Part shown: one piece after another, positions 2,481-60,452 of the stretch | How the letters are laid out: every line of letters starts with the position of its first letter | Numbering within the stretch: the stretch's first letter is position 1 | Assembly (NCBI GenBank): GCA_964016885.1 | Contig: OZ024743.1 | Location: 148,800,001-148,864,000, forward strand | DNA from: Eledone cirrhosa | Taxonomy: Eukaryota | Direction of reading: 5' to 3' | DNA length: 64,000 nucleotides | Notes under the pieces: generated by a model | The model's input: only the letters and a program-made list of their open reading frames with translations | Told to the model about the DNA's origin: nothing | The model's database searches: none | Translations under genes and position numbers: made by a program

Positions 2481-4489
2481 AGAAGCGAAGTAGTTTCAGA
2501 TGTTCAAGTCCTTTAATAATAATGCTGTGATATATATTTCAATGGCGAAAGTGCCCCCACTCTTCTGCTCACCAGTCTCGCGACATCGTCAGATAGCTTG
2601 TTACATAATAAGGTTATGTTTCCGAGGCAATCCAAATTGAATCGACATGGGAACGGACGAAGTATGTGCTTTTGGGTTCCCCTGTAAGTACCAATTCATC
2701 CCCACTGGTCTGCGCAGGCGCAGGTCCAGGGGGCAAGTTGACCATTATTTAAACGAAATTCACTTGGTCCGTTCCCTCTCTCAGCCAGAAAATGACCCAT
2801 TCAAGCCGGCACCATAGTTTACTGCTACCCATCCCATCTGTGGCAGTCAGCCGAAAGCCAGTGGGGATGGGAGAGTATTAGTACTTACAGGTCTCTATAC
2901 TACCTCTCACTAATAACTGTCCATCAATCCCTAAGAGTATATATTTTTAATTCTATGTATCATAGTTTATATTGGAAGTTATAAGAGAAATTAGAACTAA
3001 AAATTCAAAATCGAAAATCCTAAATCAAGTATCAGAAATTATAAATTAAAAAATTAACAATTAGAAATTAAACTGAAAAAATTAAACAAGTAGAAATTAA
3101 TCTGAAAGTACTTCGATTTTCCTTATTCGATATTTATTCCGTCACTCCTATGTGGAATAAGTACGTTGAGTGCTTGATTTGAATTGCATCAATATTTACC
3201 CTAAGAATTTAGTTCCAATTGGTTGAGCGCTCTATGATGTAACTGATATGGTGGAGAAGAGAGGAACCAACCATGAGCTACCCCTGGAAATTCCCTCTAC
3301 TATGGGATGGAAACCCCGGACACTGGACGGACATAATCATATCTTTCGGCAGGATAAATACGCGGAAACAAAGATAAACCCTTATTTTTCTGCACCAAAT
3401 CGCCTTTGAACAGAAGCCCCCTCAATTCAAACTATACATGGACAAATTGACAATAATATGGATCATTTTGCATATATGTACTCTGTGTTTTTTGCATTTA
3501 TTCATTCATTCATTGGTTCTTTTCTTTTGTGTACTTTATTTATGTCTTTGTTGGTTTTGTTCCATGTGATTGAAATTACGACTATGTACCCGATTGACTA
3601 CTACCCGTAATACTGTAATTTACCCTCAGTTCTACTGTACGGCAGCATCGTTCAGTATGTAGATAGTGTAACTGTAACATTAGGACATTTCGGAACTTCT
3701 TACTTAAACATCTCTCTGCATATTATTTACTCACTTCAATCTATATTTTTTCTACTCACCTCAATCCGGATTCTCACTTGAAAAATCTTTAATTGTTTAA
3801 TTTCTACTTGTTAATTTTTTAATTTATAATTTCTGATACTTGATTTAGGATTTTAAATTGTAATTTTTAGTTCTAATTTCACTTATAACTTCCAATATGA
3901 AACTATGATACACAGAATTAAAAATATATACACTTAGGGGTTGATGGTCAGTTATTAGTGAGAGGTTGTATAGAGACCTGTAAATACTAACACTCTCCCA
4001 TTCCCACTGGCTTTTGGCTGACTGCCACAGATAGGATGGGTAGCAGTAAACTATGGTGCCGGCTTGAATGGGTCATTGTCTGGCTGAGAGAGGGAACTGA
4101 ACAAGCGAATTTTGTTTAAATCTGCGGTAGCTAATGGTCAACTTCCCCCCTGGACTTGCGCCTGCGCAGACCAGTGGGGGTGAATTGGTACTCACAGGGG
4201 AACGGATGAAGAACCCAAAAGCACATACTTCGTCCGTTCCCATGTCGATTTAATTTGGATTGCCTCGGAAACATAACCATATTATGTAACAAGCTATCTG
4301 ACGATGTCGCGAGACTGGCGAGCAGAACAGTGTGGCCACTGTCGCCATTGAAATATATATCACAGCATTATTATTAAAAGACTTGAACATCTGAAACTAC
4401 TTCGCTTTTCCTTATTCGATATTTACTCCGTCACTCCTATGTGGAATAAGTACGTTGAGTGCTTGATTTGAATCAATATTTACCCTAAG
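2481..4489 (+). mobile_element. PLE-type pseudo-LTR element with inverted 5' copy (about 2481-3105 inverted versus about 3795-4408)
   Basis: About 620 bp inverted repeat around a spacer. The tail (cttattcgatattt...taccctaag) occurs at 3120-3205 and 4410-4489. One HHR motif per arm. Confidence 0.7.
4293..4366 (+). ncRNA. Hammerhead ribozyme motif (copies 2524-2597 minus, 9120-9193 plus)
   Basis: gctat-CTGACGA-t...tggcga..tcgcca.t-GAAA-tatata-TC|acagc. Stem I has one mismatch; stem III loop is palindromic. Confidence 0.6.
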
Positions 4490-5314
4490 TATCATCATCA
4501 TCATCATCATCATCAACGTTTAACGTCCGTGTTCCACGCTTGCATGGGTTTGGACGGGGGTTTTCCCACTTGAGGCAAGAGTGATTGTCTTGCTCGCATA
4601 GGACTGTCTGGCAGGTTTTCTACAGTTGGATGCCCTTCCTAACACCAACCACATTTACAGTGTGGGTCTGGGAGGTATTTACCGTGTTGCCTACATGGCC
4701 ACATTACAGCGTGGTGTGTGTGTTTTTTTGTCGTGACACCTACACGATCTCATTTGTTTCGGCCTGGATGGTGTGGCACCAACATAACTTTACATAGAAG
4801 GGGGTAGTGTGGATGCGGTGGGGGTGGTGGGACGGGGGTGTATTTTGTTAGAGATGCCTACTGACTGTAGTAGGTTTTACTATGTATTTAGGTAAGGCGG
4901 GTCTTCTCTATTACTGAGTACCGCCAAAGGTCTCGGTCCAGTGACATTGTCTTGGAGAGGTGTAAGTGTGTGAGGTCGGAGTTTATCAGCTCGTCCCAGG
5001 TTTTTCTAGGTCTGCCTATTCCGTGGCTACCGTCTATCTTTATTGCCCTGCACTTTGTTATACAGCTATCGACTTTCATGCGCATCACGTGTCCATACCA
5101 ACGTAGCCTTCTCTCGAGTAAACAACATCTGATCCCTCTTATTTCTAATTTTTTCCTTAGTTCGTTTATGCTTTGCCGTTCACGTATATTACTATTACAC
5201 ATCCAGCGGAGCATGCAAGCTTCGTTCCTCTCTAGTCTGCATATATCCTCTGCACACAATGCCCAGGTCTCACTGCCATGCAACATTGCTGTTCGTATGC
5301 AGGCATCATACAAC
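4490..5314 (-). mobile_element. RTE LINE 3' end (ORF C-terminus, UTR, tail)
   Basis: [19 protein letters not shown]...[11 protein letters not shown]...GRPRKTW; (CAT)n at 4490-4513. Confidence 0.9.
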
Positions 5315-5702
5315 CTATATATATATATATATATATATATATATATATATATATATATATATATATATATATATATATATATAATATATATATATATATA
5401 TATATATATATATAATATATATGTATATATATATATATATATATAATATATATGTATATATATATATATATATATATATATATATATATATATATATATA
5501 TATATATAATATATGTATGTATATATATATATATATATATAATATATGTATGTGTATATATATATATATATATATATATATATATAATATATATGTATAT
5601 ATATATATATATATATATATATATATATATATATATATATATATATATATATATGATATATGTATGTATATATATATATATATATATATATATATATATA
5701 TA

Positions 5703-58060: not shown

Positions 58061-59310
58061 TCTTCTAGGTCTATTCTCGTACTCTGTATATGCGACCTTA
58101 TCGACAAATCCACCCCGAGCAAGAGCTTCATTGTAATAAGTGGAATGGTCGTTGAAAATTTGCTCGTTAGTAGATAGACGGGAAAGCCTCAAGGAAACGT
58201 TTCTTACCAGGTTCCTGGTTATGCTGGGAGGATGGTTGGAATGCTTACTTATGTAACTAAGCGTATCATTCGGTTTTCTATACGGGTAATACAAGCCATT
58301 CGATAAATTGAGGTTAACGTCGAGGTAATTAACGACCGAGATGTTGGCCTCAACCTGTATAGAGAGGTTGAAGCCTTTAAAGAAGGCTGTGAGTTCTTTT
58401 CTGAACCTGTCGCAAGCACGAGGGCCGCACTTAGTCATGGTCAAAAGACCATCATCACGGTACAAACCCCCGCCCGCGTTGGGGAATTCGTCCTTGATAG
58501 AGAAAAGAAGGAAAAGGCCGATAATCAGTAACCTCCGCAGAATCGCTGGCGCCCATACTCACGTCTAACGACCCTTCCACTTATTACTATGAAGTTCTTG
58601 CTCGGGGTGGATTTGTCGATAAGATAGCATATACAGAGTACGAGAATAGACCTAGAAGAAATATATCCCGTCGCATTATATGGTATAACCCACCATATAA
58701 TATGGAGGTGACCACACCATTAGCTAAGATCTTTCTATCACTTATTACGAAGCAGTTTTCCCCTCACACATAAATATAGTAAAATTTTTAATAGAAATAC
58801 CATTAAAACTTCTTACTCTAAGACTCCTAACGTTGCACATAACATCACAGTTTCAAATTTAGCTAAACTACCTAGCCGTAGGAACACGTGCTACCCTGTA
58901 ATCAGTACTAACTGTAATTGTAGGATTCGAGTTGATTGCCCCATATCCGGGAAATGCCTCTCTAGTAACATTGTCTACAAATGTAAGGTTGAAACACCCA
59001 CGTCCCGTAGGGCCTACATAGGGTTAACCGCCAATAGATTCAAGCAGCGTCTTTACATGCATACCCATTATTTTCGTTACCCTGTAAGAAGGAATATGAC
59101 GACACTATCAGCTTATATCTGGAGTCTAAAAGACAACCACACCCAATATAAGGTACACTGGGTGATCCTAGCTAGGGCTAGATCGTATAACGGAAATAAA
59201 AGACCAAGTGACCTCTGCGCCGCTGAGGCCCTGCAAATACTCTACGCCAATGACCACATCTTAAACAAAAATCTGAGGCAATTTCGGCTTGTAAACATAA
59301 ATTGCACAAA
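58061..59310. pseudogene. Second Naiad-like PLE: RT part inverted (58061-58530 minus), linker plus GIY-YIG (58597-59310 plus)
   Basis: Minus: GLYRDDGL, VVNYLDVNLNL, PYRKPND..YISKHSNHPP. Plus: IIWYNPPY, KIFNRNTIKTSYS, CNCRIRVDCPISGKCL..IVYKC..YIGLTANRFKQR, LSAYIWSLK, DLCAAE. Confidence 0.9.
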
Positions 59311-59789
59311 ACCTTCTTGTATTACAGCCCCACATTATACCCTAACGGATAGTACGATCTATACGTGGATATTTTACGTCTTGATGTGGTAGCTAAGTAT
59401 ATGTTATGTTTATACCATTACTTATTTGCATATGTAAGTATATATTACCTGTATGTTTTGTGAAGGTACGTATACTTTCTCGTACGTATATTTGATTGTA
59501 TATGTTATGGCGTATATTTTTATATATTCTGGTATATATGCTTTTGGTTATGTGTATACGGGAGTTTTGCATCTGTGTGAGTATGAGGGTTCGTACGTAT
59601 GTTGGGTGTGTGTATATGTGTACTTCATGTTTTGGTTGACGTAAGTCTCCGAACATTTGTGTATTTACATGTAGGTATGTGTGTGCGCTTGTTATATACG
59701 TATTTATTTATTTATATACGTTTATTTAATTACTTATTTATTTGTATACACGCACACACACACACACATATTTATATGTGCGTGGTTTT

Positions 59790-60452
59790 TATACCTATGA
59801 CGAGTGTTTTCGCGTATGCTTGTGTATGTACGTATTTGGATGCGTGTATGTATATATTTAATATCAATTACCTCTGTATTGTATTTTATTTACTTTATTT
59901 TTAACTCTGAAGCGGAGAATCATTCGGTTTCCTAGTTAAAAATTTAGTCTACGACTTCAGCTATACTATTTACACGGTTTTGTCTTTGCGTGCAATTGTT
60001 CTCCACGATCCGCATATGACGTATTATCTTCGTTTTTTCCGTTCAATGCCAGAGAACGTCTCTATGAACCACCTTAGGGAACATTAGTCTACGACTTCTT
60101 TAATACCATAAACGTGGTTCTGTCTTTGCGTGTAATTGTTTTTCACCGCTCCTATTAATGACGTATTATATTCGTTTATACCCGTTCTTTGCCAGGGAAC
60201 GTTTCCACGAACCAAAGTATCGTCTTCCTGTCTTCCTTCGGTTGCAACGTTTTTTAAAATATCCACTTCTGCGTTTACAGATTGACTTTGTTAGTTTCAG
60301 AAGATCCCGTTAAGGGTGAAAGCAGCGATTCTTTGCTTAAACTTTAATCTGTTATTTTAATAAATATTTGCTCTACGGTTCTTATATATTTTATATATAT
60401 TTATCTTTATCGAGCTCTCTTTGGATTTTAGTCTTCAAATTTATTGTTATTA
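59790..60452 (+). mobile_element. Pseudo-LTR downstream of the second PLE (inverted relative 63340-64000; fold-back fragment 53330-53515)
   Basis: Shared ttagtctacgacttc sub-repeats of about 140 bp and an HHR-like motif. Confidence 0.7.
60293..60343 (+). ncRNA. Hammerhead-like motif with U4>A core (copy 63356-63406 minus)
   Basis: agttt-CAGAAGA-t ccc gttaa ggg t-GAAA-gca gcgattctt tgc-TT|aaact. Confidence 0.65.

What the first reader, a model, noticed from the sequence alone, without database searches (positions are those of the whole stretch)
4293..60343. Recurrent unpaired 10.1-11.1 position across independent HHR families
Seen: the first pair of stem II is U.U at 4293, 25364, 52360, 55728, 57823 and 60293; C.A at 8279, 43069 and 43904; A.G at 31271; A.A at 50131. 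It is G-C only at 6528, 42151 and 61942. The mismatch is retained between diverged copies (8279 versus 43069; 52360 versus 57823). Known: the HHR consensus strongly prefers G10.1-C11.1. Inference: this is not random decay but a selected, possibly attenuated or dimer-dependent subclass that standard descriptors would miss.
Basis: partly seen in the sequence, partly recalled or inferred. Interest (0 to 1): 0.8.

Follow-up and report, generated by a model that had tools for sequence, protein, structure and literature searches.

The report
Mismatch-tolerant hammerheads in Penelope retroelements
Many jumping-gene families in this animal genome carry a hammerhead self-cutting RNA motif whose usual G-C pair is replaced by a family-fixed mismatch (mostly U-U, already published, sometimes C-A, A-G or A-A), which is likely tolerated rather than a selected brake.

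Summary
All 14 sites are real type I hammerhead (HHR) motifs with the stated 10.1/11.1 letters. The mismatch is the family majority, not decay. In 1.39 Mb of evenly spaced genome, 78 of 171 motifs are mismatched; over all DNA held, 32 of 55 sequence clusters are. The states are filtered: U·U 19, G-C 12, G·U 6, C·A 5, A-U 4, A·A 4, A·G 3, G·A 1, U-A 1. None has C-G, U·G, A·C, C·C, C·U, U·C or G·G.

Within families the position varies like stem II or flanks, not like the core, and related families swap G-C and U·U. Dimer-type stem III is equally common in paired families. U·U is published: 14 of 25 Hydra-clade Penelope families (Craig 2021, File S2) and an active axolotl retrozyme with about 60,000 copies. 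The standard Penelope descriptor allows the mismatch. One U·U family here ends a Hydra-clade-like element.

Not found in print: family-fixed A·G and A·A, the filtered spectrum, and an abundant U4→A core. Cleavage is untested. The scan earlier noted first-pair mismatches in phage hammerheads.

The parts
2523..2598 (-). Family A HHR copy, U·U
4292..4367 (+). Family A type I HHR, U10.1·U11.1 (4305/4349), palindromic stem III, predicted cut after 4361
   Evidence: U·U in 33 of 33 distinct family motifs
6527..6618 (+). Family B HHR, G-C (6540/6598), U3-A8 core; a second identical copy starts near 5921
8278..8359 (-). Family C HHR, C10.1·A11.1 (8346/8298), then G-C
   Evidence: C·A in 35 of 38 distinct motifs
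9119..9194 (+). Family A HHR copy, U·U
25363..25489 (+). Family D HHR, U·U (25376/25471), 96-nt branched stem II domain
   Evidence: 12 of 12
26362..26488 (+). Family D second copy about 1 kb downstream, U·U, decayed GAAA
31271..31340 (+). Family E HHR, A10.1·G11.1 (31284/31321), then 7 pairs
   Evidence: 7 of 7; 4 loci have it 1216-1278 nt after a PLE endonuclease match
36766..36828 (+).
42151..42658 (-). Family F, two HHRs in a 465-bp tandem, G-C; relative of family I
43069..43150 (+). Family C HHR, C·A (43082/43130)
43757..44049 (.). Family G inverted pair of HHRs (43896- and 43910+), C·A, 115-nt stem II domain
   Evidence: 10 of 10
45722..46004 (.). Family G second inverted pair, C·A
50135..50185 (+). 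Family H HHR, A·A (50148/50168); weakest descriptor score (12.9)
   Evidence: 21 of 21 aligned copies, a query-biased set
52360..52874 (-). Family I, two HHRs in a 472-bp tandem, U·U
   Evidence: 52 of 55
55682..55777 (.). Family J inverted pair (55726-, 55733+), U·U over a 3-bp stem II
   Evidence: 19 of 21
56035..56169 (-). Family G HHR, C·A
57447..57865 (.). Family I inverted pair: 57483(-) decayed (U-A, GAAG) and 57829(+) U·U
58061..60450 (+). 5'-truncated Hydra-clade-like Penelope element (inverted RT piece 58061-58568, endonuclease region to about 59390, 3' UTR) ending in the family K HHR
   Evidence: 90.6% colinear with L161 over 1852 nt; L161 has DKT, CxCX5C, CxxC and CxH motifs
60292..60344 (+). 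Family K HHR, U·U (60305/60317), core CAGAAGA (A at position 4)
   Evidence: U·U 19 of 22, A4 22 of 22
61941..62022 (+). Family L HHR, G-C; relatives elsewhere have U·U or A·A
62828..62873 (-).
63355..63407 (-). Family K copy with U·G

Best explanation
These are type I hammerhead motifs at the 3' ends of Penelope-like retroelements and their short non-coding derivatives, and the first position of stem II is a loosely constrained site that holds a limited set of family-fixed states, likely because it only has to stack under the A9·G12 pair. Shown: the fold, the conserved core, the family-fixed mismatch, the switching between related families, the missing states, and the link of family K to a Hydra-clade-like RT/GIY-YIG element. 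Inferred: transcripts of tandem or inverted copies pair through the self-complementary stem III and cut after H17 to release element RNA. Slow cutting is enough for these elements, so G10.1-C11.1 is dispensable. A change in a master copy among G-C, G·U, U·U, A-U, A·A, A·G, C·A and U-A (all linked by single substitutions) is then amplified into a family, while states that disturb the junction (C-G, C·U, U·C, A·C, C·C, G·G) do not found families. Recalled, not tested: G10.1 N7 is a metal ligand whose loss lowers the rate, and A·G, A·A and C·A could form sheared pairs that extend A9·G12.
For: Core columns never show a shared sub-family variant (0 of 187) while 10.1 and 11.1 do (3 of 17 each), near N7 (4 of 17). 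Spectrum over 55 clusters is non-random against base composition (0 of 200,000 simulations) and stays so after merging relatives (p 1e-4 to 3e-4; no A·C, C·C, C·U, U·C, G·G among 25-27 group-states). C·U and U·C are transition neighbours of the commonest state and arise in single copies but never as a family state. G-C/U·U switches in 4 and C·A/A·G switches in 2 of 13 related groups. The pair above the mismatch has no G-C bias (U-A 12, C-G 10, G-C 4, A-U 3, G·U 3), so it is not G10.1-C11.1 with two insertions. Whole-run DNA contigs show no variant of 8% or more at 43082/43130 or 42645/42632, with a compensatory A-U/U-A swap at 42644/42633. Literature: U·U is the best-tolerated mispair (PMC3088659 section 8); U·U in 14 of 25 Hydra-clade families by my count of File S2 (PMC8557442); an active U·U axolotl retrozyme (PMC7229834).
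Against: No cleavage or expression data for any motif here; no RNA run was available. The within-family test has few diverged sub-families and mixes in query-biased copies, so weak selection on the mismatch is not excluded: 11.1 in mismatch families has 0 of 11 shared variants, and 10.1/11.1 deviate less than loop II (4.8% vs 7.6%, p=0.03). Clusters were cut by BLAST similarity, not a tree; 7 of 63 doubtful clusters were dropped by eye and many clusters are single copies, so some G·U calls may be CpG decay of G-C. MFE folding does not single out the three-way junction for most monomers. The stacking and sheared-pair model rests on recalled structural rules. A link to a PLE reading frame is firm only for K, suggestive for E, and not shown for A, C, D, G, H, J.
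Confidence: 0.62

Rival explanations
1. The mismatch is selected as a brake: slower cutting lets the element RNA be translated or reverse transcribed before it is cut.
For: Mismatches outnumber G-C (32 vs 12 of 55 clusters; 78 vs 31 of 171 sampled copies). U·U and C·A both lack a purine at 10.1. PLE HHRs cleave slowly in vitro (PMC4209133). Craig et al. suggest that losing the HHR may even help proliferation.
Against: G-C families are also abundant and near-identical between copies; relatives differ in state in 8 of 13 groups; the position is not held like the core; the published U·U axolotl monomer was more, not less, active than its sister family.
Confidence: 0.15
2. The motif is kept for a non-cutting role (RNA fold bound by the element's RT or a host protein), so stem II geometry is relaxed along with some core positions.
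For: Family K is fixed for A at core position 4 (22 of 22) and cluster 12 for C (10 of 10). A mutational scan reports low activity for changes in the CUGA turn other than the C-G swap (PMC9901934 passages). None of the 40 shown variants of family K falls inside its HHR (23 rows hidden).
Against: G5, A6, G8, A9, G12-A15.1, U16.1 and a non-G H17 are kept in all 55 clusters (partly imposed by the descriptor); C3-G8 co-varies to U3-A8; natural U·U HHRs do cleave.
Confidence: 0.13
3. The mismatch marks a dimer-only subclass.
For: Perfectly palindromic stem III in 21 of 32 mismatch clusters versus 10 of 23 paired.
Against: That difference is not significant (p=0.17); unstable monomer stem III is equally common (28/32 vs 20/23); families F (G-C) and I (U·U) share the same stem III; both axolotl families work better as dimers.
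Confidence: 0.06
4. Random decay of dead copies, or mis-registered stems.
For: Single decayed copies exist (26368, 57483, 63401); G·U at a CpG may be decay.
Against: Family majorities of 86-100% in the eight window families with at least 7 distinct motifs; only 1 of 32 mismatch clusters is one step from G-C; the helix above continues in the 1x1 register.
Confidence: 0.03

Closest known systems
HHRs of Hydra-clade Penelope-like elements (Craig et al. 2021, PMC8557442, File S2)
   Same: Type I HHR at the 3' end, short palindromic stem III, (TA)n surroundings, U·U at the base of stem II in 14 of 25 listed families by my count; DKT and CxCX5C motifs in the protein linked to family K.
   Different: The table has no A·G or A·A, and C·A only in a Chara PLE-X element; stems II there are short, here up to 115 nt; the paper lists the motifs as canonical and the passages I read do not discuss the mismatch; no U4A core.
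Axolotl HHR_Amex2 of non-LTR retrozymes (Cervera and de la Peña 2020, PMC7229834)
   Same: U·U at the base of helix II fixed in a very abundant animal family; tandem non-coding units; better cleavage as dimers.
   Different: Units here are 420-472 bp (families F, I) versus 350 bp; activity and circular RNA are shown there, untested here.
Minimal PLE hammerheads (Cervera and de la Peña 2014, PMC4209133)
   Same: PLE association, palindromic stem III, dimer model; descriptor allows extra N10 and N11; the Hydra and D. willistoni rows of Fig. S3 read as U·U.
   Different: Their consensus is an unpaired base after A9 followed by G10.1-C11.1; here that form is a minority (cluster 4, 9 of 171 sampled copies, plus family N).
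Natural U10.1-U11.1 variant (Perreault et al. 2011, PMC3088659)
   Same: Same mismatch, described as the best-tolerated mispair.
   Different: Treated as a rare variant; here U·U is the commonest state.

Membership tests
Type I hammerhead ribozyme | Core CUGANGA...GAAA...UH | tested here: met
   12 of 14 sites exact; 6528 has the known U3-A8 covariant; 60293 has A at position 4 and is the exception
Type I hammerhead ribozyme | Stems I, II, III around the core, ends in stem I | tested here: met
   compensatory change in family F stem II; stem II sequences differ but stay paired across family C
Type I hammerhead ribozyme | G10.1-C11.1 pair (strong preference, not absolute) | tested here: not met
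   11 of 14 sites mismatched; natural exceptions published
Type I hammerhead ribozyme | Self-cleavage after H17 | not testable with these tools
   needs an in vitro assay; no RNA run held
Rfam hammerhead families | Score at gathering threshold | tested here: not met
   0 hits in the window, G-C motifs included; best seen HH9 34.6 bits vs 52 at 42135-42205
Hydra-clade PLE (family K element) | DKT in place of DKG | tested here: met
   L161, colinear with the window copy
Hydra-clade PLE (family K element) | CxCX5C linker, CxxC and CxH around a C-terminal GIY-YIG endonuclease | tested here: met
   seen in L161; CxCX5C also in window 58724-59389; the related L072 frame hits Pfam GIY-YIG
Hydra-clade PLE (family K element) | N-terminal RWK motif | tested here: inconclusive
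   not seen in the broken L161 N-terminus; seen only in L104
Hydra-clade PLE (family K element) | Placement in the Hydra clade on an RT tree; absence of CCHH | not tested
   no reference proteins available to the script
Hydra-clade PLE (family K element) | HHR near the 3' end, next to (TA)n | tested here: met
   HHR 941-1029 nt after the endonuclease match, followed by (TA)n
Non-LTR retrozyme (families F, I) | Short non-coding tandem units, one type I HHR each | tested here: met
   465 and 472 bp tandems in the window, 420-470 bp spacing elsewhere; longer than the published 170-400 nt
Non-LTR retrozyme (families F, I) | Abundant circular RNA | not testable with these tools
   no RNA run
Minimal PLE HHR (Cervera 2014) | Unpaired base after A9 then G10.1-C11.1; no loop 3 | tested here: not met
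   mismatch families have a base on both sides, no G-C bias in the next pair, and 6-19 nt stem III

The most novel reading that the evidence does not exclude
Retroelement hammerheads use a small alternative code at the base of stem II: besides G-C and U·U, the states A·G, A·A and C·A form a sheared pair that extends A9·G12 and swap among themselves, and some very abundant families (K with U4A, cluster 12 with U4C) stay active with a changed U-turn. The genome is then a natural mutational scan of the hammerhead core across hundreds of thousands of copies.
Probability: 0.3. Interest if true: 0.55.

Novelty: new variant of a known kind. Interest (0 to 1): 0.32.

Why it matters
It shows that G10.1-C11.1, often treated as near-invariant, is the minority state in a genome with an estimated 370,000 intact hammerhead motifs (171 in 1.39 Mb, scaled to 3.0 Gb). 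Searches that demand a pair there would lose about 46% of copies. It gives a short, testable list of allowed and excluded states. It does not reveal a new ribozyme class or a demonstrated regulatory subclass.

Tried and rejected
Rfam: no hit at gathering score; the E-value scan was swamped by (TA)n matches. The repeat finder was uninformative for the same reason. The genome search with family K returned nothing (common words skipped), so K was counted from the even sample. RNA evidence: no RNA holder listed; runs X4-X6 are of unknown kind, and the circular 464-nt contig in X4 could be a tandem DNA repeat, so it is not used. Top-40 genome hits are biased to the query, so copy-level shares come from the even sample only; the per-family and cluster tallies do include these loci. 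One search used poor reference copies for clusters 3 and 14 and was replaced. Rejected: that 25364 and 43904 were misreads (my first strict scan, missed their long stems II); double-insertion reading of the mismatch; stronger stem II compensating for the mismatch (p=0.18-0.85); Naiad origin (endonuclease is C-terminal, DKT motif; a search of Craig's supplement for six core-plus-stem-III motifs gave three hits, none recognisable as an HHR). Roberts 2023 double-mutant values: the supplement search returned no such values. Lünse 2017, Arkhipova 2017 and Long & Uhlenbeck 1994 are not held and the Cervera 2020 supplement was too large; any of these may already show C·A, A·G, A·A or U4A families.
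Full report
Observation. The window is 31% GC, rich in (TA)n, and lies in a 3.0-Gb assembly. A descriptor that ignores 10.1/11.1 recovered 12 of the 14 sites; 4293 and 6528 were read by hand. Rfam finds none at gathering score, G-C ones included.

Is it family consensus? Yes. Among distinct motif sequences in all held DNA: family A U·U 33/33, C C·A 35/38, D U·U 12/12, E A·G 7/7, G C·A 10/10, H A·A 2/2 distinct (21/21 copies), I U·U 52/55, J U·U 19/21, K U·U 19/22. These sets include query-biased search hits. The evenly spaced 1.0-Mb sample agrees: A 5/5, C 5/5, D 1/1, E 4/4, G 2/2, I 22/24, J 7/8, K 17/19, H none sampled. 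Contigs of one whole DNA run show no variant of 8% or more at the C·A of 43069 or the G-C of family F, and a compensatory swap at 10.2/11.2 of F.

Genome-wide spectrum. I fetched 139 evenly spaced 10-kb stretches. The scan kept 183 motifs against 4 in reversed DNA. With window motifs and by-catch from search loci they formed 63 clusters. I dropped 7 as doubtful (12 sampled copies) and scored one (unpaired base then G-C) apart. The other 55: U·U 19, G-C 12, G·U 6, C·A 5, A-U 4, A·A 4, A·G 3, G·A 1, U-A 1; none C-G, U·G, A·C, C·C, C·U, U·C, G·G. Of 171 sampled copies: U·U 51, A-U 48 (29 from one tandem family), G-C 22, C·A 11, unpaired base plus G-C 9, G·U 8, A·G 7, U-A 6, A·A 5, four singles; 78 mismatched. 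The mismatch spectrum departs from base composition (0 of 200,000 simulations), and still does after merging relatives into 30-38 groups (p 1e-4 to 3e-4). These p-values treat groups as independent, which they are only roughly. Only 1 of 32 mismatch clusters is one substitution from G-C, which excludes decay from G-C.

Selected or tolerated? In 18 families aligned to a reference copy, core columns deviate 2.0% with 0 of 187 shared variants. In the 12 mismatch families 10.1/11.1 deviate 21/440 (4.8%): more than core (2.3%, p=0.006), like flanks (4.3%, p=0.63) and stem II (3.9%, p=0.41), less than loop II (7.6%, p=0.03). One family is openly mixed (U-A 4, C·A 4, A·A 1). Of 13 groups of related clusters 8 mix states, with G-C/U·U in four and C·A/A·G in two; families F and I in the window are such a pair. 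So the site is filtered but labile. Power is limited and weak selection is not excluded.

Dimer link. Mismatch and paired clusters do not differ in stem III length, palindromy (21/32 vs 10/23, p=0.17), monomer stability (28/32 vs 20/23 unstable), stem I or stem II strength. Dimer-type stem III belongs to the whole repertoire.

What carries them. Pfam finds RT and GIY-YIG frames near some motifs. Window 58567-60410 is 90.6% colinear with L161 and 58567-60450 is 92% colinear with L284. L161 has DKT, CxCX5C, CxxC and CxH, the marks of the Hydra clade of Penelope-like elements (PMC8557442 section 11); no tree was built. Family K's HHR lies 941-1029 nt after the endonuclease match, family E's 1216-1278 nt after a similar match in 4 loci. 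Families F and I form 420-472 bp tandems like non-LTR retrozymes. Inverted pairs (G, I, J) fit the usual PLE insertion pattern (PMC8557442 passages). Parent elements of A, C, D, G, H, J were not found.

Mechanism. Shown: fold, conserved core, family-fixed and interchangeable states, missing states. Inferred: dimer formation through stem III and cleavage after H17 to process element RNA, as proposed for PLE HHRs (PMC4209133), with 10.1/11.1 serving as a stacking step under A9·G12. Recalled from general knowledge, no call: G10.1 N7 binds a metal ion; a pyrimidine before a tandem G·A favours the sheared form, which would explain the lack of C-G; A·G, A·A and C·A can form similar sheared pairs.

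What is known. Perreault 2011 (PMC3088659; passages and section 8): natural U10.1-U11.1, the best-tolerated mispair according to a cited mutational study I did not see. Cervera 2014 (PMC4209133; main text parts 1-2 of 4 and whole supplement): consensus is an unpaired base plus G10.1-C11.1, but the descriptor allows extra N10 and N11; the Hydra and D. willistoni rows read as U·U, and one row has an extra A before GAAA that I could not assign (PDF columns lost). Cervera 2020 (PMC7229834; passages and section 15): axolotl HHR_Amex2, about 60,000 copies, U·U at the base of helix II, 22% cleavage in 1 h as monomer versus 6% for Amex1, both better as dimers. Craig 2021 (PMC8557442; passages, section 11, supplement parts 1-2 of 59): of 25 Hydra-clade families in File S2 I count U·U 14, U·C 1, G-C 7, G·U 2, other 1; C·A in Chara PLE-X1. 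Note that U·C occurs there although absent here. Passages only: PMC6765202, PMC11014351, PMC10085705, PMC9901934, PMC13725137, bioRxiv 10.64898/2026.07.22.740005. Eight searches found no report of family-fixed A·G or A·A, of the restricted spectrum, or of a natural U4A core; Lünse 2017 and Arkhipova 2017 could not be read and may contain them.

Earlier notes of this scan (none for this genome) describe first-pair mismatches in phage hammerheads and PLE hammerheads in sharks; I did not test them and they did not change my reading.

Verdict. Observation confirmed; interpretation partly supported. The dominant state is published and is the norm in one PLE clade. What is added is its prevalence, a filtered set of further states, and a U4A family. 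New variant of a known kind, interest 0.32.

Noticed in passing
window 60292-60344(+), 63355-63407(-); L121, L137, L156, L173, L284, L293: Family K has A at core position 4 (CAGAAGA) in 22 of 22 distinct motifs and 18 of 19 copies in 1.0 Mb of even sample (roughly 57,000 copies if scaled). None of the 40 shown variants in a whole DNA run falls inside the motif (23 rows hidden). Not found in print in one search.
   Followed up: partly
L139:211(+), L185:8208(+) and 5560(-), L233:3063(-): Cluster 12 has C at core position 4 in 10 of 10 distinct motifs, mostly with A·G at 10.1/11.1.
   Followed up: partly
139 evenly spaced 10-kb stretches (L121-L220, L281-L319): About 123 intact hammerhead motifs per Mb, from dozens of families; an estimated 370,000 in the assembly.
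   Followed up: partly
window 19645-22248(+): A second broken Penelope-like element with DKT motif, RT and endonuclease region; no hammerhead was detected right after it.
   Followed up: partly
window 11573-13319(-): Broken LINE-type element: endonuclease (PF14529) then RT (PF00078).
   Followed up: no
L267, L272-L280 (G000:C28, about 30.5-30.9 Mb): Family J forms arrays with about 80-nt spacing, close to a bare hammerhead unit.
   Followed up: no
L153, L168, L171, L176: A 311-bp tandem retrozyme-like family with A-U at 10.1/11.1 and the same 14-nt stem II layout as families F and I.
   Followed up: partly
window 42487-42950; runs X4, X5: Two runs of unknown kind hold one unit of family F as a single 495-496 nt contig at low depth; X4's joins back by 464 nt. 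Circular RNA or collapsed tandem DNA cannot be told apart.
   Followed up: no
window 33543(+); L135, L140, L141, L156, L164: A dispersed repeat gives a weak U3-A8 hammerhead-like match (score 14.4); dropped as doubtful.
   Followed up: no
window 41410(-), 48086(-): Two related copies with CUGAUGA and no GAAA box within the next 110 nt; possibly truncated or non-hammerhead.
   Followed up: no
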